Source of the DNA: an uncultured Alphaproteobacteria bacterium
GTDB lineage: Bacteria; Pseudomonadota; Alphaproteobacteria; HIMB59; GCA-002718135
DNA length: 64,000 nt
Direction of reading: 5' to 3'
NCBI GenBank assembly: GCA_902628835.1
Contig: CACOPD010000002.1
Coordinates: 16,218 to 80,217, forward strand
Below are positions 1 to 55,697 of this stretch, piece after piece. The first letter of the stretch is position 1, and the number at the start of each line of letters is the position of its first letter. A program made the translations under genes and the position numbers. A model generated the notes under the pieces. The model was not told where the DNA came from. It was given only the letters and a program-made list of their open reading frames with translations, and ran no database searches.

Positions 1-204
1 ACAATTCCAAACTTTATTATTTTTATTACATGTCTGATTTGTCTCAGGAGCATCAATAGCATGCAGTCTTATTTTATTTTTTTTAATATGAATCGTATCA
101 CCATCGATTACTTTTGCTTTACCAAAGATAGTCTTGCCAGATGAAAATGTACTAAAACAAATTAATATAAAAAACAGATTAAATATTAAGATTTTTACTA
201 CCAT
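1..204 (-). CDS. Thermonuclease (staphylococcal nuclease, SNase-like) family protein, N-terminal 68 codons only; the gene continues past the window start
   Basis: My own minus-strand translation (not in the ORF track) gives MVVKILIFNLFFILICFSTFSSGKTIFGKAKVIDGDTIHIKKNKIRLHAIDAPETNQTCNKNNKVWNC. It has a hydrophobic signal-like N-terminus followed by the SNase signature DGDT...IRLxxIDAPE. The ATG at 204-202 overlaps the soxG 3' end by 26 nt. Confidence 0.7.
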   Translation of the reverse strand, partial: MVVKILIFNLFFILICFSTFSSGKTIFGKAKVIDGDTIHIKKNKIRLHAIDAPETNQTCNKNNKVWNC

Positions 205-754
205 CAACTAATAATTCATAAACATATTTTGTATGTGATCTATTTAAATGTAAATCCAATGATGTAGATTCTTCATCGGTATTATTTCTAACAAAAAGTA
301 CAGGAATTTTTATAAATATTGTTTGAGCTACAGAAAAATTAGTTTTTAAAATTTCTTCTAAGTTGGCAACAAGAAATTTAGAAAGTAACGTAAACACTTT
401 TTCACCCTCAAGCCGTAAAATAGTTCTATTAAATGAAACATCAGTAATTGCTGTCTTTTGTGGATTGAGATTAGATTTTAACAAAGAGATAATTCCATCC
501 TTTTCATTTTCTGGTGTTATAACTAACCATTCATTAGGACCAAGCCACATAATACTAATATTATTATTAAAAATTCTTACATTTGGTTCAATTGGTAATA
601 CTAAGTTTAATGCTGAGCCAATGTTTTTCATAAACTCTTTATCTGAACTTTTACCTCGTATATTTATTTTACCTGATAAGCTTAATTCTTCAATTGTAAC
701 TCCGTTGTAATTTTTTTTATTTAAATTAAGGACATTATTAAAGGCTAAACTCAT
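179..754 (-). CDS. soxG: Sarcosine oxidase gamma subunit
   Basis: A 191-aa ORF directly after soxA with a 4-nt overlap. It is the last gene of a soxB-soxD-soxA-soxG arrangement, and its size is typical of the gamma subunit. Confidence 0.75.
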   Translation of the reverse strand: MSLAFNNVLNLNKKNYNGVTIEELSLSGKINIRGKSSDKEFMKNIGSALNLVLPIEPNVRIFNNNISIMWLGPNEWLVITPENEKDGIISLLKSNLNPQKTAITDVSFNRTILRLEGEKVFTLLSKFLVANLEEILKTNFSVAQTIFIKIPVLFVRNNTDEESTSLDLHLNRSHTKYVYELLVDGSKNLNI

Positions 755-3741
755 TGATTTATCCTATGATTTTTAGGATCAATAAATACAGGACTAGTTA
801 TTTCAACTTCAATATTTTCATTTTCCATAGGAGCAATAAGAACTTTGCCTTTTTTTTCAAGACCACCTTTTATTAAAGCTAAAGCAAACGAGCTTTTTAA
901 ATTAGGAGAATAATAACTAGATGTAACATGCCCAACCATTTTCATTGGTAGTGCAGTAATTTTTTCAACTAATTGTGAACCTTCTTCAAGGACTTTATTT
1001 GGATCTTTAGTCTTTAATCCAACTAATTGTTTTCTATCTTTTTTGATAGTATCACTTCTAAATAAAGCTCTCTTACCAATAAAATCATATTTTTTCTTAC
1101 TAACAATCCAGTCCATATCTAGATCTACAGGTGTTACAGAACCATCTGTTTCTTGGCCAACTATAATAAAACCTTTTTCAGCCCGAAGAACATGCATTGC
1201 TTCAGTTCCGTATGGAGTAATATTAAATTCTTTACCTTTATCTATACAAATCTCCCAAAGATTTTTAGCATAACCAGAAGGAACATTTATTTCGTAACAC
1301 ATTTCTCCAGTAAAACTTATGCGCATCACTCTGCACATAATTCCATTAATATTAATATCTTTAAAACTCATATGAGGAAAATTTTCTTTTGAAAAATCAA
1401 AATCTGGAATTAGTTTTTGCATTAATTTCTTAGAATTTGGACCATTTAAACTTATGGTTCCATAGTTTTCTGTAACTGATGTTAAATATACTTCTAGTTC
1501 AGGCCATTCTGTTTGTAGCCAATCTTCTAATTTTGACATTACTGATGCTGCATTTCCTGTAGTTGTCGACATAAGATAATGAAACTCATCTAATCTGGTT
1601 GTTACACCATCATCGATGACCATCCCATCATCTCCTAACATTACACCGTATCGACATTTTCCAATTTCTAATTTTGACCAAGAATTTGTGTAAACTCTGT
1701 TTAAAAATTCACTAACGTCTCTTCCTTTAATATCTATTTTACCGAGAGTTGATGCATCTAATATTCCTAAACTATCTCTAGTTGCTTTGACTTCTCTATT
1801 TAATGCAGACTGAAAATTTTCATTCTTTTTAGGATAATACCAAGCTCTTTTCCATTGACCTACATCTTCAAATAAAGCCTCATTATCAATATGCCATTGA
1901 TGCATTGGGCTTGTTCTTTCTAAATCAAAAAATTCTTTTACATGACGCCCAGCAATTGCTCCAAAAGTTACTGGTTTATAAGGTAATCGAAATGTTGTCG
2001 TACCTAATTCAGAAATATTAGTATCAGTTAACTCTGATATTATTCCAAGAGCGTTAATATTACTGGTCTTACCTTGATCAGTAGCCATACCTGTAGTTGT
2101 ATAACGTTTAACATGTTCAATAGATTGGAAACCTTCTTTTAAAGCTAATTTAATATCTTTTGCCGTTACGTCATTTTGAAAATCTACAAACATTTTTGTT
2201 CTTGAAATATTATTCTTCGATGTAATCCAAATGTTTTCGTGTTTACCGTGCTTTAGATTATCTGATTTGTAATTAACTTCATCAAGTTCATTTTCATCAT
2301 TATTATTTAAATATGCCAAAGTATCTTCTTGAGTTTTAATTAATATTTCATTTAAGTTATAGTCACCATTGCAACTTCCAACGCATAATGTGTCTTGATA
2401 AACTTCACTTGGAATATAACTTCCGTCTATATCTCTATATTTAAGTTTCCCTTTTGATTGAGTAAATAAATGGACAGTAGGAGTCCAACCACCAGCAATT
2501 GCTAAAAGATCACATTTAATATTTATAGAAGATTTCTCATTATTATTTTCAGTTGTGATTTTTTTTAATTTAACTTCTCTAATTTTTAATCTTCCAATAG
2601 TATCACTAATTTCGTAACCTTTAAGTATTGTAACACCTAATTCATTAGCTTTGTTTGGAAAATAACCATCACTATTATCTCTGGTATCCACAATAGCTTC
2701 TACTTTTATACCTTGCTCAACAAAATCTAATGCAGTTTCATAAGCGCTATCATTATTTGTAAAAAAAACTACGTTTTTTCCAACAGCAACTCCATATTTA
2801 TTTAAATATTTTTTTGCACTGTTCGAAAGCATGATGCCGGGCCTATCATTATTATTAAAAATTATTGGTCGTTCAATTGCGCCTGTTGCTAGAATAACTT
2901 TTTTAGATCTAATTTTCCAAATTCTTTCTCTAATATCATTTTTTTTATTTAGACCTTTTTCTGGATCAATTTCTTGTACTGCTAATAATAAATTATAATT
3001 CAAGTATGCAAAACAAGTCGTATTTTTAACTATTTTTACATTTGAATATTTAGAAAGTTTATCAATTATTTTATTCTTCCATTCATTTATTGGTAAATTA
3101 TCAATTTTGATGTTTTTATTTATTGTAGATAAAATTTCACCTCCAAGATCCCCTTCTTGCTCGACTAGTAATACTTTATAATTTTTGCTTGCTGCAATTT
3201 CTGCTGAAATTAGTCCACTTACTCCTGCTCCAACAATCAGAACATCACAATGATAATGAAAATGTTCATATTTATGAGGATCGTCCTTTTTTGGTGATTT
3301 ACCAAGTCCTGCAGCATGTCTAATAAAAAACTCATATGCCTTCCAAAATTTTGGTGGCCACATAAAAGTTTTATAATAAAATCCTGCAGGAAAAAATGGA
3401 GACAGTAAATCATTTACTGCACCTGCATCAAATTTTACAGATGGCCAATTATTTTGACTATAAGCTTTTAAACCATCATATATCTGTACTTCAGTTACTC
3501 TTCTATTAGGTTCAGTATATTCATTAGTCTCAAGTTGAACTATTCCATTAGGTTCTTCACTTCCTGCTGAATAAATACCTCTGGGACGATGATATTTGAA
3601 ACTTCTTCCTATTAAGTGGACATTATTTGCAAGAAGTGCTGAAGCTAGAGTATCGCCTTCAAATCCAAAATATTCTTTACTATCAAAATAGAACTTTACA
3701 GACTTATTATTTTCAAGATTTTTATTATTTTTGTATCGCAT
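751..3741 (-). CDS. soxA: Sarcosine oxidase alpha subunit
   Basis: 996 aa with a Rossmann dinucleotide motif (VLIVGAGVSGL). The C-terminal half resembles the GcvT-like folate-binding aminomethyltransferase fold. It is flanked by soxD and soxG. Confidence 0.9.
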   Translation of the reverse strand: MRYKNNKNLENNKSVKFYFDSKEYFGFEGDTLASALLANNVHLIGRSFKYHRPRGIYSAGSEEPNGIVQLETNEYTEPNRRVTEVQIYDGLKAYSQNNWPSVKFDAGAVNDLLSPFFPAGFYYKTFMWPPKFWKAYEFFIRHAAGLGKSPKKDDPHKYEHFHYHCDVLIVGAGVSGLISAEIAASKNYKVLLVEQEGDLGGEILSTINKNIKIDNLPINEWKNKIIDKLSKYSNVKIVKNTTCFAYLNYNLLLAVQEIDPEKGLNKKNDIRERIWKIRSKKVILATGAIERPIIFNNNDRPGIMLSNSAKKYLNKYGVAVGKNVVFFTNNDSAYETALDFVEQGIKVEAIVDTRDNSDGYFPNKANELGVTILKGYEISDTIGRLKIREVKLKKITTENNNEKSSINIKCDLLAIAGGWTPTVHLFTQSKGKLKYRDIDGSYIPSEVYQDTLCVGSCNGDYNLNEILIKTQEDTLAYLNNNDENELDEVNYKSDNLKHGKHENIWITSKNNISRTKMFVDFQNDVTAKDIKLALKEGFQSIEHVKRYTTTGMATDQGKTSNINALGIISELTDTNISELGTTTFRLPYKPVTFGAIAGRHVKEFFDLERTSPMHQWHIDNEALFEDVGQWKRAWYYPKKNENFQSALNREVKATRDSLGILDASTLGKIDIKGRDVSEFLNRVYTNSWSKLEIGKCRYGVMLGDDGMVIDDGVTTRLDEFHYLMSTTTGNAASVMSKLEDWLQTEWPELEVYLTSVTENYGTISLNGPNSKKLMQKLIPDFDFSKENFPHMSFKDININGIMCRVMRISFTGEMCYEINVPSGYAKNLWEICIDKGKEFNITPYGTEAMHVLRAEKGFIIVGQETDGSVTPVDLDMDWIVSKKKYDFIGKRALFRSDTIKKDRKQLVGLKTKDPNKVLEEGSQLVEKITALPMKMVGHVTSSYYSPNLKSSFALALIKGGLEKKGKVLIAPMENENIEVEITSPVFIDPKNHRINQ

Positions 3742-3749
3742 CTTTAATT

Positions 3750-4106
3750 TTAAAATCTATCTTTTTTCGATGTTGATGAGTTTCCTGATCCAATACTAGG
3801 TTCACCTGAGGGTGTTGCTGGAATATTTGCTTTTAATTTAGGAGGCGCTTCTCCCATCTTATATATTGCCAGAATTTCATCTGTTGCAGTATTTCTTGCT
3901 AAATTAAACCATTGTCTACATCCATATTCATGGTTCCATCTTTCGTAATGAACACCTTTTTCGTTCTTACGTAAGAATAAATATTCTGCCCATTGATCAT
4001 CAGAGAGTTCAGGAGGATTTTTTGGTCTTGCAATATGAGCCTCACCTCCACAAGAAAATTCAGCCTGATCTCTTTCTCCACAATAAGGGCAATTTATTAA
4101 AAACAT
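3750..4106 (-). CDS. soxD: Sarcosine oxidase delta subunit
   Basis: 118 aa. The N-terminal CPYCGERDQAEF...GGEAH zinc-ribbon-like motif is typical of SoxD, and the gene lies between soxB and soxA. Confidence 0.9.
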   Translation of the reverse strand: MFLINCPYCGERDQAEFSCGGEAHIARPKNPPELSDDQWAEYLFLRKNEKGVHYERWNHEYGCRQWFNLARNTATDEILAIYKMGEAPPKLKANIPATPSGEPSIGSGNSSTSKKDRF

Positions 4107-4109
4107 GAA

Positions 4110-5369
4110 TTAATGTGCTACCGCAGCTGCACCATGTTCATCAACTAATTCACCACTAGAAAATCTGTTTATTGTGAAAGGAGCATTTAATTCATGCGCT
4201 TGATCATTAGCTATAGTGTGAGCAAATACCCAACCAGAACCTGGCGTTGCTTTGAAACCACCTGTTCCCCAACCACAATTAAAATACAATCCATTTATAT
4301 GAGTTTTACTGATAATGGGACTTGCATCAGGACAGATATCTACAATTCCTCCCCAATGACGAAGCATCTTCATTCTAGAAAATATTGGAAACAATTCGAC
4401 TATTGCCATTAATGTATCTTCAACAATGTTAAAGCCACCTCTTTGAGTATATGATGTGTATCCATCTGTTCCAGCACCAATAACTAATTCTCCTTTATCT
4501 GATTGAGATACATACGCATGAATTGTATTGGACATCACTACTGTATCAATAACAGGTTTTACTGGTTCTGAAACTAGCGCTTGTAATGGTTTACTCTCTA
4601 AAGGTAATTTGATGCCCGCCATATTGGCAATAACACTGGTATGACCTGCAGCAGCTATTCCAATTTTATTTGAATTAATAGTTCCCTTTGTTGTTTCAAT
4701 ACCAGTTACATTTCCATTTTTTACATTAATACCAGTTACTTCACAATTTTGAATTATATCAACTCCCATTTCATCTGCTCCCCTAGCATAACCCCAAGCA
4801 ACAGCATCATGTCTTGCTGTTCCCGCTCTTCTTTGTAATGTTGCTCCTAAAACAGGATATCTAATGTTGGGTGAAGTATTTATAATTGGACAAAACTCTT
4901 TGACTTTCTTTGTATCAAGCCATTCACAATCAATATCATTTAGTCTGTTTGCATGCCAACGTCTTTTTAATTCTCTAACATCATGAAGATTATGAGCAAC
5001 ATTCAAAACTCCTCTTTGAGAAAACATTACGTTGTAATTTAATTCTTGAGACATACCTTCCCAAAGTTTTAATGCATGCTCGTATAAAGCTGCACTTTGA
5101 TCCCATAAATAGTTTGATCTAATTATAGTCGTATTTCTCCCTGTATTCCCACCGCCTATCCAACCCTTTTCAATTACTGCAATATTATTAATTCCATGGT
5201 TTTTTGCTAAATAGTAAGCAGTAGTTAAACCGTGTCCACCACCACCTACAATTATTGCATCATAATTTTTTTTTGGTTCAGGACTTTTCCATGTCTTTTG
5301 CCAATTTTCATGATGACTTAGAGCGTTTCTAGCAATGGATAAAAATGAGTATTTATTTTTATTAAACAT
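4110..5369 (-). CDS. soxB: Sarcosine oxidase beta subunit (FAD-dependent)
   Basis: 419 aa with the FAD-binding motif [19 protein letters not shown]. It is the first gene of the soxBDAG set. Confidence 0.9.
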
Positions 5370-5389
5370 TATAGCTCTATATAGCAGTT

Positions 5390-7063
5390 TTAAAAAAGAC
5401 CTTCAATTTCTCCTTGGTCATTTAGCTTTATCGAATTTGCCGCAGGAACACTTGGTAGACCGGGCATAGTCATAATATCGCCGCAGACAACTACTATAAA
5501 TTCTGCTCCTGATGATAGCCTTACTTCCCTAATAGGTAAAACGTGTCCTGTAGGCGCACCTTTTAGATTAGGGTCAGTTGAGAAACTATATTGAGTTTTT
5601 GCGATGCAAACAGGCAATTTGCCAAATCCTTTGGTTTCAAAATCCTTCAATTGTTGACGTACTTTTGTGTCTGCAACAACTTCACTTGCGTGGTAAATCT
5701 CTTGTGCAATTTTTTCTATTTTTTTGAATAGAGTTAAATCATCTTCATATAAAAATTTAAATGTATTTTTACTTTCTTCACAAATATCTATTACATTTTG
5801 AGCTAATTCTTTTGCACCATCACCACCATCTGACCAGTGAGTACACATAGAAGCTTTCACTCCCTGAGTTTTACAAAAATCTAGGACGGCATCAACTTCA
5901 GTTCTAGAGTCAGTTACAAAATGGTTAATCGCAACAGTTACTGGTAATCCGAATTTCCTTATGTTGTTTATGTGTCTTTCTAAATTTACTAAACCAATTT
6001 TAAGTGCATTTACATTTTCATTTTTCAAGTCTTCTTTAGAAACATCACCATGCATTTTTAGTGCTCTAATTGTAGCAACTAAAACTACACAATCAGGTTT
6101 TAAATTTGATTTTCTACATTTTATATCAAGGAATTTTTCTGCTCCTAAATCAGCTCCAAATCCTGCTTCAGTTACAACATATTCACTTAGTTTTAGACTA
6201 GCTTTAGTTGCAATAACAGAATTACAACCATGGGCAATATTTGCAAATGGTCCACCATGAATTATAGCAGGATTATTTTCTAACGTTTGTGTTATATTTG
6301 GTCTGATTGCATCTTTTAGTAATACTGTCATTGGACCTTGTGCATTTAAATCTTTTGCATAAATAGCTTTTTTGTCTCGTGTATATGCAATAGTTATATT
6401 TCCAATTCTCTCTTCAAGATCTTTTAAGTCTTTTGCTAAGCAGAAAATTGCCATTATCTCCGATGCAACTGTTATATCAAAACCATCTTGTCTAGGATAT
6501 CCATTTGCAACTCCTCCTAAATCAACAACAATAGATCTAAGCGATCTATCATTCATATCCATTACTCTCTTCCAAACAACTCTTCTAACATCAATATTCA
6601 ACTTATTTCCCCAGTAGATATGATTATCAATTAATGCAGAAAGTAAATTATGTGCTGACGTAATTGCATGAAAATCTCCGGTAAAATGCAGATTAATTTG
6701 TTCCATTGGAACTACTTGTGCATAGCCTCCACCAGCTGCTCCACCTTTCATACCGAATGATGGTCCAAGACTTGGCTCTCTTAAACAAACAATAGATTTT
6801 TTTCCTAATTTATTAAGACCATCACTTAATCCAACAGAGGTTGTTGTTTTACCTTCTCCTGCTGGTGTTGGAGTTATTGCTGAGACTAAAACAAGTTTAC
6901 CATCTTTATTTTTATTAAGTGACTCTATGTACTCTAAGTTTATTTTTGCTATGTGACGACCCATAGGACTAAACGCTTCTGGCGTATCTGGTACATCAAG
7001 CCCTTCTAGAATTTCACTAATAGGTTTCATTTTAGCTTTTCTTGCTATTTCAATATCTGACAT
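5390..7063 (-). CDS. fhs: Formate--tetrahydrofolate ligase
   Basis: 557 aa with the characteristic [12 protein letters not shown]-loop. It reads as an FTHFS-like sequence over its full length. Confidence 0.95.
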
Positions 7064-7156
7064 GAGACTCCTAAATAATAAGATAGTTAATCTATAGATT
7101 AACTTTTATATCAAACAACTTTTGTTTCATTAAAAGATTAAAAAATTGTGAAGAAG

Positions 7157-8050
7157 CTAATTTAACTCGAATTTCTGTTTGTTATTATAAGAAAAATCTG
7201 AGTTATTAAATTGATTTAACCACTCTGATGTTTTTTTCATACCACCAAAAGCGTAGAAGTGAATTTTTTCAAGTTTGGAGTCTTTGCTTATTTCGCTGTG
7301 TGCAGCAAGATCATAAATCAATTTGTCAGGAGTGTTCAATGTTGCTAGCTTAGTTAAGTTAAAAGCCTGTTTTGTAATAAATCTCAAAGAATTTCCAATA
7401 CCACACGATCTTGCATAATTTATTAATGTTTTAATAGAGGCTGGACCTGGTATGCCAGCATGGATTGGTAATTTATTTCCAATTCTTACTAAGTGTTTCT
7501 CCCATTCGATTAAAGATTTAGCTTCAAAAAAAAATTGAGTTGCTAAATACATTTTAAAATCAGCATTTTTTGCAAAATCATTTTTTTGTTTGATTGCTAA
7601 ATCTAAATTTTCATTTGAAATATCTGGACTTCCTTCGGGATGCCCAGCTACACCTACAGATTGATAATTATATTTTGAAAGAAAATCTGTTTTTAGCACA
7701 TCAATTGAAGAAGAAATTTCACCTGCCTGATTTCCACCACCACCAATAATTAACATTTTTGAACACCCAGATTCATTTGCAAGTTCACCTATATATTTTT
7801 CTAAGTCATTCTTATTTATAATAGTTCTCGCAGGTAAATGAGGTATTACATCATAACCTTCTAATTTTAATTTTTTGGCAGTTCTAATTACATTTTTTGA
7901 ATTTTCATCTGGTAAATAAGTTATATAAATGTCATGATTTTTATCAAGAAATTCAGAAAAGCTTCCATATTTTTCGTAAACATTTGGAGTCGTTTCTATA
8001 GAATAACTATTGAGAAACTTTTTAACGATATTAATGGTTTCTTTAGACAT
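7157..8050 (-). CDS. Methylenetetrahydrofolate reductase family protein (MetF-like)
   Basis: 297 aa. Blocks GVAGHPEGSP, ATQFFFE, IHAGIPGP and IHFYAFG line up with the E. coli MetF blocks AYPEVHPE, ITQFFFD, IIPGILP and FHFYTLN (recalled from memory). Confidence 0.65.
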   Translation of the reverse strand: MSKETINIVKKFLNSYSIETTPNVYEKYGSFSEFLDKNHDIYITYLPDENSKNVIRTAKKLKLEGYDVIPHLPARTIINKNDLEKYIGELANESGCSKMLIIGGGGNQAGEISSSIDVLKTDFLSKYNYQSVGVAGHPEGSPDISNENLDLAIKQKNDFAKNADFKMYLATQFFFEAKSLIEWEKHLVRIGNKLPIHAGIPGPASIKTLINYARSCGIGNSLRFITKQAFNLTKLATLNTPDKLIYDLAAHSEISKDSKLEKIHFYAFGGMKKTSEWLNQFNNSDFSYNNKQKFELN

Positions 8051-9060: not shown

Positions 9061-9255
9061 ATGGCAAAAAAAACTTCATTCGCTCTAAAACAACTAGTAC
9101 CTGAAGAAAATCCAAAAACAGGAACAAAGTATATTGTAAGAAAACCAACAAAAGGATTGAAAGTTGCTGAAAAGCTTAGAATGAAAAAATATGATCCTGT
9201 GTTAAAAAAACACGTTTGGTTTGTAGAGAAAAAAATGCCTCCTCATAGTAAATAA
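9061..9255 (+). CDS. rpmG: 50S ribosomal protein L33 (Cys-less form)
   Basis: 64 aa and basic. The C-terminal KKYDPVLKKHVWFVEKK matches the alphaproteobacterial L33 pattern RKYDPVxKKHVxFxExK. Confidence 0.7.
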   Translation: MAKKTSFALKQLVPEENPKTGTKYIVRKPTKGLKVAEKLRMKKYDPVLKKHVWFVEKKMPPHSK

Positions 9256-9301
9256 TAGATTTACCTCTTTAATTTATTCTAAATTAACATAATTTAAATT
9301 C

Positions 9302-10723
9302 ATGACAGTCACTTATGGTATTCATTGGTTTAGACAAGATTTACGATTACAAGAAAATCCATCTATATTGTCCCTTTCAAAAAAAGTTAATCAAATAATA
9401 CCAATTTATATTTTTGATTTAAATCAAAGAATTGGATCAACATCCAAATGGTGGTTAGAAAAATCTTTAATTAGTTTAGATGGTTCGATAGAAAAACATA
9501 ATGGCAAACTAAACATTTTTGCTGGTGATCCAGAGAAAATTATATCTACGATATTAAAGAATTCAAATGTTAAATGTGTATCTTGGAATAGATTATATGA
9601 CCCTTATACAATTAAAAGAGATACTAAAATTAAATCTATAGTCACTTCATCTAAAATAGAATGTGACTCACATAATGGGTATCTCTTAAATGAACCTTGG
9701 AATATTAAAAATAAAAGTGGAACTTTTTTTAAAGTATTTACTCCTTACTGGCGACATTGTGATGAAATACTGAAACTAAAAGATAATAAATTTAAAAAAA
9801 TAAAAATAAATTATGCCAATTCAAAATTTAAAAATGAAATAACTATACAAGATTTAAATCTAACAAACAAAAAAGATAAATGGATAAAAAAAATTGAAAA
9901 ATATTGGACACCTGGTGAAATTAATGGAAAATTACAATTAAAAAAATATATTTCAGAAAAAGCAAATAATTATTCTGTTGGAAGAGATAGACCTGATAAA
10001 GACTTAACTTCTAAATTATCACCTTATCTTCATTTTGGAGAAATATCTGCTTTTGAAGTATATGATACAGTTAATAATGAAAAAAAAATTAATCCAGAAA
10101 ATAAAAAAAAATTTCTAGCTGAACTTGGCTGGAGAGATTTTTCTTATAATCTTTTATTTCATTATCCAGACATGATCGAAAAACCTATACAAACTAAATT
10201 CAATAAATTTCCATGGATAAAAAATACTAAAAATTTATCATTATGGCATAATGGTAAAACTGGTATTCCAATTGTTGATGCTGGAATGAGGCAGCTATAT
10301 AAAACAGGGTGGATGCATAATAGAGTAAGAATGATTGTAGGCTCATTTTTAACAAAAAATTTATTATTACATTGGAAAAAAGGAGAAGAGTGGTTTTTTG
10401 ATACTTTAGTTGATGCAGACGTTGGTTCTAATTCTGCTGGTTGGCAATGGATTTCTGGTTGTGGTGCAGATGCAAGTCCATATTTTAGAATTTTTAATCC
10501 AATTTTGCAGGGTCAAAAATTTGATCCTGATGGTAATTATGTAAAAGAATATGTTCCTGAGTTGAATAATGTTCCAAAAAAATATATCCATAACCCTTGG
10601 GAGATGTCAGAGGAAGATCAAAAAAAATATAATTTTGAGATTGGTACTTCATATCCATCGCCAATAGTAGATTTAAAAGAAACAAGAAATAGAGCATTAG
10701 CAGCATTTAAAACCATTAGTTGA
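9302..10723 (+). CDS. phrB: Deoxyribodipyrimidine photolyase / cryptochrome family protein
   Basis: 473 aa with the motifs GWRDFSYNLL, TGIPIVDAGMRQLYKTGWMHNRVRM and GWQWISGCGADASPYFRIFNP. Confidence 0.9.
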   Translation: MTVTYGIHWFRQDLRLQENPSILSLSKKVNQIIPIYIFDLNQRIGSTSKWWLEKSLISLDGSIEKHNGKLNIFAGDPEKIISTILKNSNVKCVSWNRLYDPYTIKRDTKIKSIVTSSKIECDSHNGYLLNEPWNIKNKSGTFFKVFTPYWRHCDEILKLKDNKFKKIKINYANSKFKNEITIQDLNLTNKKDKWIKKIEKYWTPGEINGKLQLKKYISEKANNYSVGRDRPDKDLTSKLSPYLHFGEISAFEVYDTVNNEKKINPENKKKFLAELGWRDFSYNLLFHYPDMIEKPIQTKFNKFPWIKNTKNLSLWHNGKTGIPIVDAGMRQLYKTGWMHNRVRMIVGSFLTKNLLLHWKKGEEWFFDTLVDADVGSNSAGWQWISGCGADASPYFRIFNPILQGQKFDPDGNYVKEYVPELNNVPKKYIHNPWEMSEEDQKKYNFEIGTSYPSPIVDLKETRNRALAAFKTIS

Positions 10724-10724
10724 T

Positions 10725-12020
10725 GTGAAAGAAAAAATAGCAATTATTGGTTCTGGTATTTCAGGAATAAGCGCAGCATACCTATTGTCTTCTAAATATG
10801 ATGTTTATTTATTTGAAAAAAATAATAGATTGGGAGGGCATACAAGAACTATTTATGTTGAAGAATTTACAAAGACAATTCCAGTCGATACAGGATTTAT
10901 TGTATTCAATGAAAAAAATTATCCAGATTTAACAAATTTTTTTAAATTACTTAATGTGAAATGCAAAAACTCAGATATGTCTTTTGCCGTCTCAAATCAA
11001 GAACCTCTAATTGAATACAGCGGTAAAAACATCTTTTCTCTTTTTGCTAATTTTAGAAATCTGTTTTCTCTAAATTTTTATAAAATGTTATTTGAAATAA
11101 GAAAACTTTATTTGTTATGCAATAACTTGAATGTCCGTGATCTAGATCAAACTAAAACTTTAAATGATTTTTTAAAAACTAATAATTTTTCAACATATTT
11201 AATAAATTATCATATTTTACCAATGATTTCTTCTATATGGTCAAGCAATATAAGTGATGTAAAAAATTTTCCTCTTATAACGTTTATAAATTTTTTTAAA
11301 AATCATGCTTTATTTAATTTAAAAAAAAGACCTCAATGGAAATACGTAGAAGGTGGAAGTAACGAGTATATAAAAAAAATTATTAATAAAAATGTTTTCA
11401 GATATAAAACAAACTTCAAAATTAAAAAAATTCTCAGAGAAAATAATAATATTAAAATAGAAGACAATAAAAATAATATATTGGAATTTAATAAATTAAT
11501 TTTAGCAACCCATGCCAATCAAGTATTGGATATTTTAGAAAAACCGACAAAAGAAGAATTAAATATATTTTCACAATTTAAATATTCAACTAACTCAGCA
11601 ATACTTCACTTGGATCAATCTTTAATGCCTAAATCAAAAATTGCTTGGTCAAGTTGGAACTTTCTAAATAAATCATCATCTTCAAAATTTACTTTAACTT
11701 ATTGGATGAATCTCCTGCAAAAATTACCAACTAAACAAAATTATTATGTTACCGTTAATCCTTATAAAAGACCTAAAAATATTATTAATGAAACAACATT
11801 TGACCATCCAATATATACTACAGGCACTATTTTAGCTCAAAAAAGTGTTATGGAAATTCAAGGAAATAATAACACTTTTTTCTGTGGAGCTTACCTTGGA
11901 TACGGTTTTCATGAAGATGGCATTCAATCATCTTCTTATGTTTGTAAATTATTGAATTGTGATTTACCTTGGAAGAGAGATAAAAATTTTTATAATAGAC
12001 TGCAAGTTAATTTTGAATGA
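10725..12020 (+). CDS. FAD-dependent oxidoreductase (amine-oxidase / phytoene-desaturase-like)
   Basis: 431 aa with a GTG start 1 nt after the phr stop. The N-terminal dinucleotide motif is IAIIGSGISGISAAYLL...EKNNRLGGHT. Confidence 0.8.
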   Translation: MKEKIAIIGSGISGISAAYLLSSKYDVYLFEKNNRLGGHTRTIYVEEFTKTIPVDTGFIVFNEKNYPDLTNFFKLLNVKCKNSDMSFAVSNQEPLIEYSGKNIFSLFANFRNLFSLNFYKMLFEIRKLYLLCNNLNVRDLDQTKTLNDFLKTNNFSTYLINYHILPMISSIWSSNISDVKNFPLITFINFFKNHALFNLKKRPQWKYVEGGSNEYIKKIINKNVFRYKTNFKIKKILRENNNIKIEDNKNNILEFNKLILATHANQVLDILEKPTKEELNIFSQFKYSTNSAILHLDQSLMPKSKIAWSSWNFLNKSSSSKFTLTYWMNLLQKLPTKQNYYVTVNPYKRPKNIINETTFDHPIYTTGTILAQKSVMEIQGNNNTFFCGAYLGYGFHEDGIQSSSYVCKLLNCDLPWKRDKNFYNRLQVNFE

Positions 12021-12790
12021 TTTCTCAAATATTATTATCTAGTATTGTACATAAAAGATTTATTCCATTTAAACACACATTAAAATATGAAGTACCAAGT
12101 CTCTTTATTAATTTGGATAATCTTGAACAATTAAGTAAAAACTATAAATTTTTTTCTTTAAACTCTTTTAATCTTTTTTCTATTTATGAAAATGATCATG
12201 GATATAGAGATAAAAGATCAATAAAAAGGTTCGTTAAAGACTCTCTTTCTAAATTTAATATAAAATATAAAAATCTTAATATAATGATATTATGTTTTCC
12301 AAGAATACTTGGGTATGTGTTTGATCCTTTATCAATTATCTATTGTTATGATGATAAAAAGTTAATATCTATTTTTTATGAAGTAAAAAATACGACTAAT
12401 GAACAACACACATATATTTTTAAAGGTAATGTAAATTTTGAAAATTTTAAATTATCTCATGAATGTGCTAAACAGTTTTATGTATCTCCATTCATAGAAA
12501 TGGAGGCAAATTATAAATTTTTTAATAGAATGCAAAAAGATAAAATAAATATTAATATAGATCTTTATGATAAAAATAACAAAAAAGTTTTAACAGCCTC
12601 TCAGCATGGTAAATTTACAGATTTTAACTCAAAAAATATGCTTAAATTTTTATATTATAATCCACTTTTAGGTTTTAAGGTAATGGCAGGAATTCTTTAT
12701 GAGGCTTTAAAAATAATTTATAAAGGTGGTAAATATTATGCACGAAAAAAGAAACCAAATGATACAGTGAGTTTTGAAGGTAATTTTTAA
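12017..12790 (+). CDS. DUF1365 family protein
   Basis: 257 aa with an ATGA overlap onto the upstream oxidoreductase. It occupies the position typical of DUF1365, between the FAD oxidoreductase and the CFA-synthase-like gene. The family call rests on context and general sequence pattern. Confidence 0.65.
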   Translation: MISQILLSSIVHKRFIPFKHTLKYEVPSLFINLDNLEQLSKNYKFFSLNSFNLFSIYENDHGYRDKRSIKRFVKDSLSKFNIKYKNLNIMILCFPRILGYVFDPLSIIYCYDDKKLISIFYEVKNTTNEQHTYIFKGNVNFENFKLSHECAKQFYVSPFIEMEANYKFFNRMQKDKININIDLYDKNNKKVLTASQHGKFTDFNSKNMLKFLYYNPLLGFKVMAGILYEALKIIYKGGKYYARKKKPNDTVSFEGNF

Positions 12791-13984
12791 ATGAATTTTT
12801 TTAAAACAAATTTTGATAAAACTGTCGAAAAATTATTAGTAAACTTTTTATCAAAAATTCGATATGGCAGTTTAACAGTTCAATTTCCCACTGGTGAGGA
12901 AAGAGTTTTTGTTGGAAAAGACGAGGATATATCTGCAAGTATCAAAATTAATAATTACAATTTTCTAAAATTAATTTTTAAAAAAGGTTCTGTAGGTTTT
13001 GCAGAAGCTTATATGAATGGTTACTTCTCAAGCCCAGATTTAACAAATTTATTACTACTTTCTCACAAAAATGAGAGTTATTTTTTACAGAGTATAAACA
13101 CTAATCCTTTTTTTGTAACCTTTGCCAAACTAAAACATTTTTTAAATAACAATTCAAAATCACAAAGTAAAAAAAATATAAAATATCATTATGATTTAGG
13201 AAATAATTTTTACGAAAAGTGGTTAGATAAAACCATGACCTATTCTTCAGCTCTTTTTGATAATAAGAATACAAATTTATCGGATGCACAATTTAACAAA
13301 TATAGAAAAATTGCTGAAACATTATCATTAGGATCAAATTCTAAAACTTTAGAAATTGGATGTGGATGGGGTGGTTTTTCAACTTTTGTAGCGAAAAATT
13401 ATAATTGTTCAGTTGATGCTATAACAATTTCAAAGGAACAATACGAATATGCCTCTGAAAAAATTTATAATGAAGGCTTGTCTGACAAAGTATCAGTTAT
13501 ATTTTCGGATTATAGAGATATAAAGAAAAAATATTCTAATATTGTTTCAATTGAAATGTTTGAAGCAGTTGGAAAGAAATACTGGCATAATTACTTTGAT
13601 ACAATTCGCAATTCTCTCAACGATGGTGGTATGGCTGCACTACAAGTCATAACAATTGATGAAAAAAAGGCTAAAGATTATCAAAACAGACCAGATTTTA
13701 TTCAACAATATATTTTTCCAGGTGGAATGCTACCTACTAAAAAACAATTTGAATATTCAGCAAAGCAGATGGGATTAAAATGTATTGAAAATTTAAGTTT
13801 TGGTGGTTCTTATGCAAAAACACTGAAAATGTGGAATAAAGAATTTCAAAAATCTTGGAATGATTTATCAAAGTTTGGCTTTGATATTAAATTTAAGAGA
13901 ATGTGGGAATTTTATTTATCTTATTGTGAAACAGGTTTTTCAAATAGTTCTACTGATGTTTCTCATTTTTTAATTCAAAAATAG
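12791..13984 (+). CDS. Cyclopropane-fatty-acyl-phospholipid synthase family SAM-dependent methyltransferase
   Basis: 397 aa with the SAM motif I TLEIGCGWGGFSTFVAK. It is CFA-synthase-like over its length, and its start abuts the upstream stop. Confidence 0.85.
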   Translation: MNFFKTNFDKTVEKLLVNFLSKIRYGSLTVQFPTGEERVFVGKDEDISASIKINNYNFLKLIFKKGSVGFAEAYMNGYFSSPDLTNLLLLSHKNESYFLQSINTNPFFVTFAKLKHFLNNNSKSQSKKNIKYHYDLGNNFYEKWLDKTMTYSSALFDNKNTNLSDAQFNKYRKIAETLSLGSNSKTLEIGCGWGGFSTFVAKNYNCSVDAITISKEQYEYASEKIYNEGLSDKVSVIFSDYRDIKKKYSNIVSIEMFEAVGKKYWHNYFDTIRNSLNDGGMAALQVITIDEKKAKDYQNRPDFIQQYIFPGGMLPTKKQFEYSAKQMGLKCIENLSFGGSYAKTLKMWNKEFQKSWNDLSKFGFDIKFKRMWEFYLSYCETGFSNSSTDVSHFLIQK

Positions 13985-13986
13985 AA

Positions 13987-14499
13987 ATGCAAAAACTAAA
14001 AATATTTTTAGTCTTAACTGGCTATCAAATAACTTGGCTAGCCTGTGTATTTGGTGAAACAAAATTTTCTTATCCTATGCTGGGCACCTGGGTTGGAATT
14101 ACTTTCCTACTAACTTATTTTTATTATAATCAAAATAGACAAAAATTTATTAAGGTTTCACTTTTGATTGCAGTTCCAGGATATATTTTTGATACTTTAT
14201 TAGTTTATTTCCAAATATACGATTTTGAAACTATAACTAAACTTGGTACCTTGCCATTGTGGATGATCATTTTATGGTTAAGCTTTAGTACTCTTTTTGA
14301 TGAAATTCTTACTTTTTTTAAAAGTTATAAAATTCTAGGAATAATTTTAAGTGGAGTTTTAGGACCTTTAACCTATTATCTTGGGGAGCCCATAGGAGTT
14401 ATAAAAATATATAACTTTCAGGTTTTTATTATTTCAATGATATTATTTTGGATGATCTTGATGATCTACTATCTAAATTACGTTTTAAAAAATTATTAG
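13987..14499 (+). CDS. Small polytopic membrane protein (DUF2878-like)
   Basis: 170 aa with about 5 hydrophobic segments, starting 2 nt after the cfa-like stop. The family assignment comes from context. Confidence 0.5.
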   Translation: MQKLKIFLVLTGYQITWLACVFGETKFSYPMLGTWVGITFLLTYFYYNQNRQKFIKVSLLIAVPGYIFDTLLVYFQIYDFETITKLGTLPLWMIILWLSFSTLFDEILTFFKSYKILGIILSGVLGPLTYYLGEPIGVIKIYNFQVFIISMILFWMILMIYYLNYVLKNY

Positions 14500-15038
14500 T
14501 TATCCTGATCTACTTTTTTTGTTCTAGTTCTATTTAAAGTTCTTTCGAGATCCTTGTAAGTACACAAACCTACGTCCATTGGACTCTTTGCTTCAAGAAC
14601 TGCCTCTCTGTATGTACCATTTCTTATAGCCTCTACCGTATTTTTTGTTGAGCCGGTAAGTTTTGCAATTTGAGAACTACTTAATTCAGTCGGATATCTT
14701 TTGATAAGCCACAAAATAGCATACGGCTTTTCTTGTCTTAAAGAAAGGGGAGTGTATTTAGAGTCTTTTTTTCTTGGAGGTAAATCCTCTATTACATCAG
14801 ATTTAATTAGATTCAAACGAGCTGCATTATCTTTTTCGCATCTTTCAATTTCTTCTTTTGTTAATTGGTTATTATCAATAGGATCATAACCTCTCATACC
14901 GACAGCAACTTCTCCATCAGCTATTCCTTGAACCTCTAATTCATGTAATCCACAAAATTCTGCTATTTGATCAAATGTTAAAGCTGTATTTTCTACTAAC
15001 CATATCGCTGTAGCTTTTGGCATTAAAGGGTATTTCAT
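14496..15038 (-). CDS. DUF1013 family protein (conserved in alphaproteobacteria)
   Basis: The motif PLMPKATAIWLVENTALTFDQIAEFCGLHELEVQGIADGEVA is typical of DUF1013. The ORF track starts at 15062, but homologs begin near MKYPLMPKA, so the ATG at 15038 is preferred. Confidence 0.65.
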   Translation of the reverse strand: MKYPLMPKATAIWLVENTALTFDQIAEFCGLHELEVQGIADGEVAVGMRGYDPIDNNQLTKEEIERCEKDNAARLNLIKSDVIEDLPPRKKDSKYTPLSLRQEKPYAILWLIKRYPTELSSSQIAKLTGSTKNTVEAIRNGTYREAVLEAKSPMDVGLCTYKDLERTLNRTRTKKVDQDN

Positions 15039-15082
15039 AATTGGCTCATATAATATAATCAAAAAATAATATATAACAAAAT

Positions 15083-54533: not shown

Positions 54534-54609
<76 letters not shown>

Positions 54610-54621
54610 CTTCAAATATAT

Positions 54622-55383
54622 TTAGCTTAAAAAGAATTGATACAAAGCAATTGATGTTGCATTGGAAACATTCAAACTATCAATTTCAAATTTTAAATTA
54701 TTTTTCATATTAATTTGGATTATTTCATCACAATCTTTTTTTACCAATTCTCTTATACCTTTACCCTCTGACCCAAAAACTAATACTGATTTTTCAGAAA
54801 AATTTAATTTTGAATCTTTACTTGCTGAACTATCAAAGCCATAGATCCAATAATTATTTTTTTTTAGGAAAGAAATTGCTCTTCTAATATTTGTTACTCT
54901 TAAATAATTTACTATTTCTGCAGCGCCAGATGCTGATTTATATAGTGATGAAGTTAATTCTGGCGAGTTATCTTTTCCAACTATAATTCCTGCACAATCA
55001 AATAATGCACATGATCTCATTATTGAACCAATATTTTGAGGATCAGTTACTTGATCTAAAATTAATATTACTGATTTAGTTTTTTTGCTTTCTGTTTTTA
55101 CAAACTCTTCTAAGCTAGGCCTAGAAAAATCTTTTGTTTTAAGAACTACTCCCTGTGTTGTATTCTCATTTCCAAATCTTCTTATGAATTCATTTTGGGG
55201 AATGATTGTAATTTTTTGTATTTTAGATTCATATATTTTGGCTAGATTAATCTGATTTTTACTAATTATTAGCTCAATTTTCTCTCTTTTATCATTTTCG
55301 ATGGCAGCTTTAACAGAATGTTGACCAAAAATTGTATGAATTCCGCGGTTTTTATTAGTTTTATTATCTCTAAACTTTCTCAT
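54622..55383 (-). CDS. rlmB: SpoU/TrmH family rRNA 2'-O-methyltransferase (RlmB-like)
   Basis: 253 aa with the motifs LDQVTDPQNIGSIMRS and VFGSEGKGIR. Confidence 0.8.
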   Translation of the reverse strand: MRKFRDNKTNKNRGIHTIFGQHSVKAAIENDKREKIELIISKNQINLAKIYESKIQKITIIPQNEFIRRFGNENTTQGVVLKTKDFSRPSLEEFVKTESKKTKSVILILDQVTDPQNIGSIMRSCALFDCAGIIVGKDNSPELTSSLYKSASGAAEIVNYLRVTNIRRAISFLKKNNYWIYGFDSSASKDSKLNFSEKSVLVFGSEGKGIRELVKKDCDEIIQINMKNNLKFEIDSLNVSNATSIALYQFFLS

Positions 55384-55508
55384 GATTTAATATCACAGAT
55401 TTGTCTAATTAATACAATCTAGATATGTACAAAATGTCATTTTTTGTCTAAAAGGCCGTTGCTTTTACGAGTATACGTATTTTGCAAAGGTGATGTTGCT
55501 GTTTTAGA

Positions 55509-55538: not shown

Positions 55539-55553
55539 CCAATTTCTTCAAAC

Positions 55554-55639: not shown

Positions 55640-55697
55640 TTATGGAGGTAACTGGATGAAAGCATTAAAGTGAGTGTGTGAAGCAGTCAGTTTAGTT

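What the first reader, a model, noticed from the sequence alone, without database searches (positions are those of the whole stretch)
9302..14499. Photolyase translationally coupled to an FAD-desaturase-like / DUF1365 / CFA-synthase-like / membrane-protein cassette: candidate furan fatty acid (photo-oxidative stress) module
Seen in the sequence: five same-strand genes have junctions of 1 nt (TGA then GTG), a 4-nt ATGA overlap, 0 nt and 2 nt, so they almost certainly form one operon. The genes are a photolyase, an FAD oxidoreductase of the amine-oxidase/phytoene-desaturase type, a DUF1365-like protein, a CFA-synthase-family SAM methyltransferase and a 170-aa polytopic membrane protein. Established knowledge, recalled from the Rhodobacter sphaeroides sigma-E/ChrR singlet-oxygen regulon: that regulon includes a photolyase and an operon of this same composition. 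Methylated furan fatty acids are made there on phospholipid acyl chains by a SAM-dependent methylase (UfaM), an FAD-dependent desaturase (UfaD) and an O2-dependent enzyme (UfaO). I believe UfaO is the DUF1365 protein, but that mapping is from memory. Inference: this cassette would let a surface-ocean, light-exposed cell make singlet-oxygen-scavenging furan or branched lipids, co-regulated with UV repair. No ECF sigma / anti-sigma (ChrR) pair is adjacent, so its regulation would differ from the Rhodobacter model.
Basis: partly seen in the sequence, partly recalled or inferred. Interest (0 to 1): 0.6.

Follow-up and report, generated by a model that had tools for sequence, protein, structure and literature searches.

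The report
Photolyase plus furan-fatty-acid operon, SAR11-type
A marine SAR11-type bacterium carries a five-gene operon that joins a UV-repair photolyase to close relatives of the three enzymes known to make furan fatty acids, plus one unknown membrane protein; this is a stripped-down, regulator-less version of a known gene cluster, not a new kind of system.

Summary
Five + strand genes (9302-14499) are joined by gaps of 1, -4, 0 and 2 nt. They encode a class III-type CPD photolyase, a UfaD-like FAD oxidoreductase, a UfaO-like DUF1365 protein, a CFA-family methylase and a six-helix DUF2878 membrane protein.

I recovered reference sequences through primers and tables in the papers. The window proteins match R. 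sphaeroides UfaD (34% identity, E 2e-79) and UfaO (28%, E 2e-27). The methylase groups with functionally tested UfaM-type enzymes, away from true Cfa (200/200 bootstraps). The gene order ufaD-ufaO-ufaM matches R. palustris and Halomonas. A Salinivibrio plasmid has the same order, photolyase and DUF2878 included, with extra genes.

The cassette sits in core genome and keeps its position in four related marine genomes. The window holds no sigma-E, ChrR or MerR.

The lipid product is unproven. The published fatty-acid profile of SAR11 strain HTCC7211 lists 0.8% 11-methyl-18:1 (the UfaM product) but 11.9% '17:0 cyclo' and no furan acid. Plant cyclopropane synthases belong to the same methylase type.

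Verdict: a new member of a known kind, of moderate interest.

The parts
9256..9301 (+). 46-nt spacer between rpmG (L33, 9061-9255) and the photolyase start. It is either the cassette's own promoter region or a read-through junction from rpmG.
   Evidence: Sequence read. Partly conserved in L001 and L004 (alignment A1). No terminator-like hairpin was found here. Its function was not tested.
9302..10723 (+). Photolyase of the class III CPD type (473 aa).
   Evidence: Pfam DNA_photolyase 1.7e-38 and FAD_binding_7 1.2e-89. The best solved relative is 4U63, deposited as 'DNA photolyase' (E 8.5e-125), ahead of plant cryptochromes. That 4U63 is Agrobacterium PhrA, a class III CPD photolyase, is from my own knowledge. 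All NCBIfam equivalog models score below their cut-offs.
10725..12020 (+). UfaD-like FAD-dependent acyl-chain desaturase (431 aa, GTG start).
   Evidence: 34% identity over 403 aa, E 1.7e-79, to R. sphaeroides UfaD/RSP1091. 37% identity, E 3e-105, to the R. palustris XCP orthologue. Pfam Amino_oxidase and NAD_binding_8. The best PDB relative is only LkcE, at 1e-22.
12017..12790 (+). UfaO-like DUF1365 protein (257 aa).
   Evidence: Pfam DUF1365 2.5e-61. 28% identity, E 2.2e-27, to R. sphaeroides UfaO/RSP1090. 33% identity, E 3e-46, to the R. palustris XCP orthologue. It shares 26 of 27 family-conserved positions with both. AlphaFold model pLDDT 96.2.
12791..13984 (+). UfaM-type SAM-dependent acyl-chain methylase of the CFA-synthase family (397 aa).
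   Evidence: Pfam CMAS 5e-81. NCBIfam Cfa equivalog 263 bits against a cut-off of 400. BLAST: 349 bits / 40% to the R. palustris XCP UfaM orthologue and 248 bits to Halomonas UfaM, against 184 bits to E. coli Cfa and 170 to Halomonas Cfa. The UfaM-type split has 200/200 bootstrap support. It carries S/E/A/Q where Cfa has C139/G236/H240/H266.
13987..14499 (+). DUF2878 membrane protein with six predicted helices (170 aa); biochemical role unknown.
   Evidence: Pfam DUF2878 5.9e-24. AlphaFold model pLDDT 87 with six long helices. No solved structural relative. The same family sits directly after the UfaM-type gene in Salinivibrio and inside the ufa/photolyase cluster of a Cupriavidus plasmid.

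Best explanation
This is one operon that pairs DNA photorepair with a lipid-modification pathway. It lies in the core genome of a SAR11-type (Pelagibacteraceae-like) bacterium.

Proposed mechanism:
1. The class III-type photolyase repairs cyclobutane pyrimidine dimers with blue light.
2. The three enzymes act on unsaturated acyl chains already built into membrane phospholipids.
3. The UfaM-type methylase adds a SAM-derived methyl group at the double bond and shifts the bond, giving a methyl-branched trans-alkene.
4. UfaD, a flavoprotein, uses O2 to introduce a second, conjugated double bond.
5. UfaO (DUF1365) inserts an oxygen atom from O2 and closes the furan ring.
6. From 18:1 cis-11 the product would be 9M5-FuFA. 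From 16:1 cis-9, the main unsaturated chain in SAR11, it would be the C17 homologue.
7. The furan lipids then scavenge singlet oxygen and radicals in the membrane.
8. DUF2878 is a conserved membrane partner of unknown role.

What is shown: gene content, order and spacing; homology to tested enzymes; conservation of the locus; absence of the sigma-E/ChrR and MerR regulators from the window.

What is inferred: co-transcription, the chemistry in this organism, the C16 substrate, the physiological role, and expression without a dedicated regulator (possibly read through from rpmG).
For: Homology to tested enzymes:
- UfaD: 34% identity, E 2e-79, to R. sphaeroides RSP1091. UfaO: 28%, E 2e-27, to RSP1090.
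- That reference locus (L008) matches 10 of 11 published R. sphaeroides 2.4.1 primers exactly.
- The R. palustris XCP orthologues give 37%, 33% and 40% identity for UfaD, UfaO and UfaM.
- UfaO keeps 26 of 27 family-conserved positions.
- The methylase clusters with the R. palustris UfaM orthologue and with Halomonas UfaM, which makes 11-methyloctadec-12-enoate in E. coli. True Cfa enzymes are excluded, 200/200 bootstraps.

Gene order:
- The three genes are also consecutive in Halomonas.

Link to the photolyase:
- Salinivibrio has MerR-phrB-NTF2-SDR-FAD-DUF1365-CFA-DUF2878 on one strand.

Conservation: the locus is kept in four related marine genomes.

Culture data: HTCC7211 contains '18:1 cis11 11methyl' at 0.8%, while 18:1 cis-11 itself is not listed as detected.
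Against: - No lipid data exist for this organism.
- The HTCC7211 profile lists no furan acid. Its main C1-modified chain is '17:0 cyclo9-10' at 11.9%. About 14% of the profile is not accounted for by the listed values.
- The S139/Q266 substitutions do not prove a non-cyclopropane product. Cotton cyclopropane synthases carry the same residues.
- The prototype UfaM (RSP2144) could not be fetched and compared.
- The R. palustris reference is strain XCP, which matches only 2 of 13 CGA009 primers. It is an orthologue, not the tested protein.
- Identities are modest (28-40%).
- Whether the genome has a second CFA-family gene is unknown. None lies in the window.
Confidence: 0.6

Rival explanations
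1. In this lineage the methylase works mainly as a cyclopropane fatty acid synthase, turning 16:1 cis-9 into 17:0 cyclo. Furan fatty acids would then be at most a trace side product, and UfaD and UfaO would handle a minor flux or a different substrate.
For: - HTCC7211 has 11.9% '17:0 cyclo9-10' against 0.8% 11-methyl-18:1, and no furan acid is listed.
- Plant cyclopropane synthases GhCPS1 and GhCPS2 carry S and Q at the positions of E. coli C139 and H266.
- The plant CPS-type protein AT3G23510 is 34% identical to UfaM and 38.5% to UfaD, so it spans both. I infer that the cotton enzymes are of the same type.
- Only one CFA-family gene lies in the window.
Against: - Both bacterial members of this clade that have been tested make the methyl-branched alkene.
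- The gene is wedged between ufaO and DUF2878, next to ufaD. That is hard to explain for a plain Cfa.
- A second, canonical cfa elsewhere in the genome is not excluded.
- How firmly the C17 peak was told apart from a methyl-16:1 isomer in the culture analysis is not stated.
Confidence: 0.22
2. The pathway stops short of the furan. The cassette would make only methyl-branched mono- or di-unsaturated chains that tune membrane properties, and the DUF1365 protein would do something other than ring closure.
For: - Only the methylated 18:1 was reported in HTCC7211.
- The UfaO mechanism, cofactor and reductant are unknown even in the model organism.
- The UfaO-like protein is only 28-33% identical to the tested ones.
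Against: - 26 of 27 family-conserved residues are kept.
- The 4-nt ufaD/ufaO overlap and the 0-nt gap to the methylase gene suggest matched expression.
- A streamlined genome is unlikely to keep a functionless gene across lineages that have diverged to 64% protein identity.
Confidence: 0.1
3. It is a BfaA/BfaB-like two-step system: a methylase makes a methylene chain and an FAD oxidoreductase reduces it, giving saturated mid-chain methyl fatty acids such as 10-methyl stearate.
For: - A CFA-family methylase close to an FAD oxidoreductase is also the BfaAB layout.
- In BfaAB the two genes overlap by 4 bp (PMC5660069).
Against: - The window's flavoprotein is a full-length homologue of UfaD (E 2e-79).
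- A DUF1365 gene lies between it and the methylase. The BfaAB operon as described has none.
- BfaAB act only on 18:1 delta-9, a chain not listed for HTCC7211.
- No direct comparison with BfaA or BfaB sequences was run.
Confidence: 0.02
4. The photolyase is only a neighbour. It would be expressed on its own, or with rpmG, with no functional link to the lipid genes.
For: - Co-transcription was not measured.
- In R. palustris XCP no photolyase lies in the 8 kb fetched around the ufa genes.
Against: - The 1-nt gap or 8-nt overlap at the phr-ufaD junction is kept in all four relatives.
- Photolyase genes accompany ufa-type genes in R. sphaeroides, Salinivibrio and Cupriavidus.
Confidence: 0.05

Closest known systems
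Rhodopseudomonas palustris CGA009 RPA2571-RPA2570-RPA2569 (ufaD-ufaO-ufaM; Lemke et al. 2020, PMC7380195)
   Same: Same three enzyme families in the same order. [quoted passage not shown] Identity to the strain XCP orthologues is 37%, 33% and 40%.
   Different: No photolyase and no DUF2878 lie in the 8 kb fetched from strain XCP. A cysteine-synthase-like gene lies downstream and an outer-membrane efflux gene lies divergently upstream. R. palustris also has FufM for dimethyl FuFA; the window holds no second CFA-family gene.
Rhodobacter (Cereibacter) sphaeroides sigma-E/ChrR core regulon: RSP1091-1087 plus RSP2143-2144
   Same: It contains UfaD and UfaO homologues (34% and 28% identity), and a photolyase is named together with UfaM. 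The gene set as a whole is the same.
   Different: There the genes are split into two transcription units. They are controlled by the ECF sigma-E and the anti-sigma ChrR, which are encoded divergently next to ufaD. That operon carries an MFS-type gene, RSP1088 and RSP1087 instead of a methylase and DUF2878. In the window everything is fused into one unit, and no sigma-E or ChrR homologue is present.
Vibrionaceae-type cluster (Salinivibrio kushneri plasmid NZ_CP114589.1)
   Same: Same order on one strand: photolyase ... FAD oxidoreductase - DUF1365 - CFA-family - DUF2878. The methylase carries the same S/E/A/Q residues.
   Different: It also has a MerR-family regulator, an NTF2-like gene, an SDR, a hypothetical gene and DUF3833. 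None of these has a homologue in the window, apart from one marginal SDR match far away at about 39.8 kb.
Halomonas sp. YLGW01 ufaM (YLGW01_00254) and cfa (YLGW01_01171) (PMC12089945)
   Same: The window methylase groups with the Halomonas UfaM (248 bits), which gave 11-methyloctadec-12-enoate in E. coli. The ufaD/O/M genes are consecutive there.
   Different: Halomonas also has a canonical Cfa of the H266 type (170 bits to the window protein). Whether the window's genome has one is unknown. The Halomonas sequences came from a machine-read PDF table and were stitched across frameshifts.
E. coli cyclopropane fatty acid synthase (Cfa; PDB 6BQC) and other solved bacterial CFA synthases
   Same: Same fold family. 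E239 and Y317 are kept, and the N-terminal domain is present.
   Different: C139 becomes S, H266 becomes Q, and GMFEHVG becomes EMFEAVG. Identity is 34%. The protein scores below the NCBIfam Cfa cut-off (263 against 400 bits) and lies in a separate clade.
Plant cyclopropane synthase / AtUFAMD1-type fusion proteins (cotton GhCPS1 and GhCPS2; Arabidopsis AT3G23510)
   Same: AT3G23510 matches both UfaD (38.5%) and UfaM (34%), so the two functions are in one polypeptide. The cotton enzymes have the same S139/Q266 substitutions.
   Different: They are eukaryotic fused proteins. By my reading of that paper the cotton enzymes make true cyclopropane acids. This is why the signature residues cannot be used to predict the product.

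Membership tests
Bacterial methylated furan fatty acid pathway (UfaM/UfaD/UfaO; Lemke 2020) | A DUF1365 protein homologous to UfaO (RSP1090 / RPA2570). | tested here: met
   Pfam DUF1365 2.5e-61. 28% identity, E 2e-27, to R. sphaeroides UfaO. 33%, E 3e-46, to the R. palustris XCP orthologue. 26 of 27 conserved positions shared.
Bacterial methylated furan fatty acid pathway (UfaM/UfaD/UfaO; Lemke 2020) | An FAD oxidoreductase homologous to UfaD (RSP1091 / RPA2571), encoded directly upstream of ufaO. | tested here: met
   34% identity over 403 aa, E 1.7e-79. 37%, E 3e-105. The 4-nt ATGA overlap with the DUF1365 gene was read directly.
Bacterial methylated furan fatty acid pathway (UfaM/UfaD/UfaO; Lemke 2020) | A CFA-family methylase of the UfaM type, not the Cfa type. 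| tested here: met
   It groups with the R. palustris XCP UfaM orthologue and with the functionally tested Halomonas UfaM, apart from E. coli and Halomonas Cfa, in 200/200 bootstraps. The prototype RSP2144 (UniProt Q3J4I7) could not be fetched and was not compared.
Bacterial methylated furan fatty acid pathway (UfaM/UfaD/UfaO; Lemke 2020) | The products (11Me-12t-18:1, 11Me-10t,12t-18:2 and 9M5-FuFA) are present on phospholipids, and their formation depends on O2. | not testable with these tools
   Indirect evidence only. SAR11 strain HTCC7211 is reported to contain 0.8% '18:1 cis11 11methyl', with no furan acid listed (PMC6528590).
Sigma-E / ChrR singlet-oxygen regulon | An ECF sigma-E and a ChrR anti-sigma factor are present, typically divergent from ufaD. 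| tested here: not met
   tblastn with R. sphaeroides RpoE and ChrR finds nothing in the 64 kb window at E 1e-3. No such gene lies within about 8 kb in the relatives. The rest of the genome was not seen.
Sigma-E / ChrR singlet-oxygen regulon | A sigma-E-type promoter lies upstream of the operon. | not tested
   I had no verified consensus to search with. The 46-nt spacer upstream of phr is only partly conserved.
Canonical cyclopropane fatty acid synthase (Cfa) | The bicarbonate-site residues C139, E239, H266, I268 and Y317 are present, and the protein scores above the curated equivalog threshold. | tested here: not met
   The window protein has S, E, Q, I and Y at these positions. NCBIfam PRK11705 scores 263 bits against a cut-off of 400. 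Plant cyclopropane synthases carry S and Q too, so failing this test does not exclude cyclopropanation.
Class III CPD photolyase | Both photolyase domains are present, and the closest relatives are Agrobacterium PhrA-type enzymes with plant cryptochromes next. | tested here: met
   Both Pfam domains are present. 4U63 scores E 8.5e-125, followed by plant CRY1 and CRY2 at about 1e-90 and E. coli photolyase at 4e-68. Naming 4U63 as class III PhrA rests on my own knowledge. Repair activity is not testable here.
BfaA/BfaB 10-methyl stearate system | bfaA and bfaB are adjacent, with no DUF1365 gene, and the flavoprotein is BfaA-like. | tested here: not met
   A DUF1365 gene separates the two genes. 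The flavoprotein is a UfaD homologue. It was not compared directly with BfaA.

The most novel reading that the evidence does not exclude
The SAR11-type cassette may be the minimal complete furan-fatty-acid machine: UfaM, UfaD, UfaO and DUF2878, hard-wired to a photolyase and expressed without any stress-sensing regulator.

If so:
- The ocean's most abundant heterotrophs would steadily make C17 and C19 furan fatty acids from 16:1 and 18:1 chains.
- They would be a large, overlooked source of marine furan acids and a sink for singlet oxygen.
- DUF2878, the only accessory gene kept in this streamlined genome, would be a real pathway component, for example one that presents the substrate or supplies reductant to UfaO.

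A variant of this reading: the same UfaM-type enzyme also makes the abundant '17:0 cyclo' of SAR11, so one enzyme would give two products.
Probability: 0.25. Interest if true: 0.6.

Novelty: new member of a known kind. Interest (0 to 1): 0.35.

Why it matters
- If the cassette works as its homologues do, SAR11-type cells make furan or methyl-branched lipids together with a photolyase. That would help explain how a tiny cell living in strong light, with almost no regulators, copes with light plus oxygen.
- It would add a very abundant candidate to the microbial sources of furan fatty acids in the sea.
- The comparison points to DUF2878 as the accessory gene most worth testing, because it is the only one kept in this pared-down version. 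Single deletions of the three accessory genes of the R. sphaeroides operon (RSP1087-1089) did not change the fatty-acid profile.
- The pathway, its enzyme families and its association with photolyase genes are already described. The gain is therefore a new host and a minimal layout, not a new mechanism.

Tried and rejected
**Searches that led nowhere**
- An exact-sequence look-up of the window's DUF1365 protein found nothing on record.
- The homologue searches returned only close marine relatives and gave no named references.
- The cluster look-up gave no names.
- The PDB holds no sequence relative of DUF1365.
- The promoter and terminator scan was no better than shuffled sequence.
- Rfam found only four tRNAs, far from the cassette.
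- Fold searches of confident models gave no match at E 0.001 or better. UfaO (pLDDT 96) shows only a weak partial likeness to nitrobindin / FABP-like barrels. DUF2878 (pLDDT 87) has an Insig homologue as its top hit, at E 0.9.

**Ideas I dropped**
- I first assumed that RSP1089 was the CFA-like gene of the R. sphaeroides operon, which would have made synteny ambiguous. The fetched locus shows an MFS-type membrane protein instead.
- I considered using S139/Q266 as a marker for a non-cyclopropane product. I dropped this because cotton cyclopropane synthases carry the same residues.

**Limits of the references**
- The R. palustris locus is strain XCP, which matches only 2 of 13 CGA009 primers.
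- Two other hits to the 19-mer primer (L005 Rhodoluna, L007 Bacillota) fit the few chance matches I estimated for a 19-mer in about 600 Gb; I did not examine them.

Full report
**1. Observation**

- 9302-10723
- 10725-12020 (GTG start)
- 12017-12790
- 12791-13984
- 13987-14499

I read the junctions from the sequence. They are TGA-T-GTG (1 nt), ATGA (4-nt overlap), TAA directly followed by ATG (0 nt) and TAG-AA-ATG (2 nt).

Pfam assigns photolyase (two domains), Amino_oxidase/NAD_binding_8, DUF1365 (2.5e-61), CMAS (5e-81) and DUF2878 (5.9e-24).

The window has about 28% G+C. The flanking genes are housekeeping genes:
- upstream: sarcosine oxidase soxBDAG, formate-tetrahydrofolate ligase, an MTHFR-like gene, TrhO and ribosomal protein L33
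- downstream: TrcR, inositol monophosphatase, EF-P, GAPDH and transketolase

The cassette therefore sits in core genome, not in an island.

**2. Origin and conservation**

Close homologues are very numerous in marine metagenomes. One, 66% identical, is named by NCBI as coming from a 'Pelagibacteraceae bacterium' (P0359). I therefore call the window SAR11-type, which is an inference.

Four related contigs carry the same layout: TrhO - L33 - phr - FAD enzyme - DUF1365 - methylase - DUF2878, then TrcR on the other strand. Their methylases are 95%, 70%, 70% and 64% identical to the window's. The phr-ufaD junction stays tight in all of them.

**3. Getting real reference sequences**

No curated model or solved structure exists for UfaD, UfaO or UfaM. 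I therefore used material from the papers themselves.
- Lemke et al. 2020 show that RSP1091 is UfaD and RSP1090 is UfaO (a DUF1365 protein of 250 aa). Single deletions of RSP1087, RSP1088 and RSP1089 did not change the fatty-acid profile. UfaM is RSP2144. [quoted passage not shown]
- Their supplementary primers served as exact DNA probes.
- The RPA2569 forward primer pulled an R. palustris strain XCP locus (L006).
- An RSP1091-internal primer pulled a locus (L008) that matches 10 of 11 R. sphaeroides 2.4.1 primers exactly. It shows ChrR and sigma-E divergent from UfaD, then UfaO, then an MFS-type protein (RSP1089).
- Strain XCP matches only 2 of 13 CGA009 primers. It is an orthologous stand-in, not the tested strain.
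[quoted passage not shown] That ufaM gave 11-methyloctadec-12-enoate in E. coli, and ufaD/O/M are consecutive there.

**4. Comparison with the references**

| Window protein | Reference | Identity | E-value |
|---|---|---|---|
| UfaD-like | R. sphaeroides UfaD | 34% over 403 aa | 1.7e-79 |
| UfaD-like | R. palustris XCP | 37% | 3e-105 |
| UfaO-like | R. sphaeroides UfaO | 28% | 2.2e-27 |
| UfaO-like | R. palustris XCP | 33% | 3e-46 |

- The UfaO-like protein shares 26 of the 27 positions that are invariant or nearly so across 121 diverse DUF1365 proteins. Both reference UfaO proteins share them too.
- The methylase scores higher against UfaM-type proteins than against Cfa-type proteins:

| Protein compared with the window methylase | Bits |
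|---|---|
| Rhizobium daejeonense operon gene | 361 |
| R. palustris XCP UfaM orthologue | 349 |
| Cupriavidus 400-aa gene | 291 |
| Salinivibrio operon gene | 267 |
| Halomonas UfaM | 248 |
| E. coli Cfa | 184 |
| Halomonas Cfa | 170 |

- In a neighbour-joining tree the UfaM-type split has 200/200 bootstrap support.
- All members of that clade have S, E, A and Q where E. coli Cfa has C139, G236, H240 and H266. The two other solved bacterial CFA synthases also show the C, G, H, H pattern in the printed alignments.
- These identity levels are like those reported between the Arabidopsis and C. sphaeroides proteins (26-38%).

**5. Context in other bacteria**

The association is old and widespread.
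- The core sigma-E regulon of R. sphaeroides comprises rpoE-chrR, the pair RSP2143-RSP2144 (photolyase and UfaM) and RSP1091-1087.
- A Salinivibrio plasmid carries MerR-phrB-NTF2-SDR-FAD-DUF1365-CFA-DUF2878-hyp-DUF3833 on one strand.
- A Cupriavidus plasmid carries TetR, FAD, DUF1365, chalcone-isomerase-like, lipocalin, DUF2878, two CFA-family genes, DUF1295 and a photolyase.
- Rhizobium daejeonense has ChrR and a sigma factor divergent from FAD-DUF1365-CFA.
- Paracoccus has FAD-DUF1365-MFS-SDR.

Against this background the window shows the smallest version: photolyase, the three enzymes and DUF2878. tblastn finds no sigma-E, ChrR, MerR, NTF2, DUF3833, MFS, lipocalin, chalcone-isomerase-like, DUF1295 or second CFA-family gene in the window.

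**6. Mechanism**

The pathway is the published one: SAM-dependent methylation of a phospholipid-bound cis-monoene to a methyl-branched trans-alkene (UfaM), O2-dependent desaturation to a conjugated diene (UfaD), then O2-derived oxygen insertion and ring closure (UfaO).

By homology, order and spacing I assign these steps to genes 4, 2 and 3 of the cassette.

The photolyase is closest to 4U63 (E 8.5e-125), with plant cryptochromes next. I know 4U63 as Agrobacterium PhrA, a class III CPD photolyase.

The role of DUF2878 is unknown. It models as six membrane helices and has no structural relative.

UfaO models with high confidence as a mostly beta protein with no solved relative. It has only a weak partial likeness to nitrobindin and fatty-acid-binding-type barrels. 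That would suit acyl-chain binding but proves nothing.

Regulation is open. Only 46 nt separate rpmG from phr, and no terminator was predicted there.

**7. Why the product is still uncertain**

- The only SAR11 fatty-acid profile I found (HTCC7211) lists 45.8% 16:1 cis-9, 17.7% 16:0, 11.9% '17:0 cyclo9-10', no 18:1 cis-11, 0.8% '18:1 cis11 11methyl' and 0.7% '19:1 cis12'. It lists no furan acid. The listed values sum to about 86% by my addition.
- The methylated 18:1 is the expected UfaM product. The dominant C1-modified chain, however, is called a cyclopropane.
- Cotton cyclopropane synthases carry S and Q at the two diagnostic positions.
- The Arabidopsis member of the plant CPS family, AT3G23510, matches both UfaD and UfaM.
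- The signature therefore marks the clade, not the chemistry.
- I could not tell whether this genome has a second, canonical cfa. HTCC1062 has a cfa gene (SAR11_1144) that was almost never found in HTCC1062-like gene order in Sargasso Sea data, so this locus may differ between SAR11 populations.

**8. Verdict**

- The system is a new member of a known kind. It is a regulator-less, minimal ufa cassette fused to a photolyase in a very abundant marine lineage.
- I found no paper that reports it for SAR11.
- Interest is moderate. It would rise if furan acids were shown in SAR11 or if DUF2878 proved to be a pathway component.

Noticed in passing
window 9061-9255 (+): A 64-aa ribosomal protein L33 gene (Pfam 7.2e-09) ends 46 nt before the photolyase start, with no predicted terminator between them. 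The cassette might be read through from a ribosomal-protein promoter.
   Followed up: partly
window 14496-14499: The stop codon of the DUF2878 gene overlaps by 4 nt the stop codon of the convergent TrcR (cell-cycle regulator) gene, which runs 14496-15062 on the minus strand.
   Followed up: no
window 179-8050 (-): A one-carbon block lies upstream: sarcosine oxidase gamma, alpha, delta and beta subunits, formate-tetrahydrofolate ligase, and a weak MTHFR-like gene (Pfam 3.5e-08).
   Followed up: partly
protein P0002: A 508-aa database protein, 95% identical to the window methylase, carries CMAS and DUF2878 in one ORF. It is either a natural fusion or a frameshift or read-through in that assembly.
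   Followed up: no
window 12017-12790 (model mabbe8a489acc): The UfaO/DUF1365 model is very confident (pLDDT 96.2) and mostly beta. It has no solved structural relative at E 0.001 or better. There is only a weak partial likeness to nitrobindin, Rv2717c and FABP-like barrels.
   Followed up: partly
L010 (Cupriavidus plasmid NZ_CP017753.1) 7506-10602: Two CFA-family genes flank a DUF1295 gene. The 400-aa one is UfaM-type (S/Q). The 366-aa one keeps C139 and H266 but is very divergent (18% identity to the window protein).
   Followed up: partly
literature: PMC2217521, Table 3: The cfa gene of HTCC1062 (SAR11_1144) has 754 homologues in Sargasso Sea data. It was found in HTCC1062-like gene order on at most a few low-scoring fragments, so this locus may be arranged differently in coastal and open-ocean SAR11.
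   Followed up: no
window 54534-57098 (+): Four tRNA genes are the only Rfam matches in the window.
   Followed up: no
L008 6773-7270: The gene after RSP1089 in the R. sphaeroides-like locus (RSP1088, seen only in part) starts with a short hydrophobic stretch and then looks soluble. From memory it resembles DUF3833; I ran no family search on it. It is not DUF2878.
   Followed up: no
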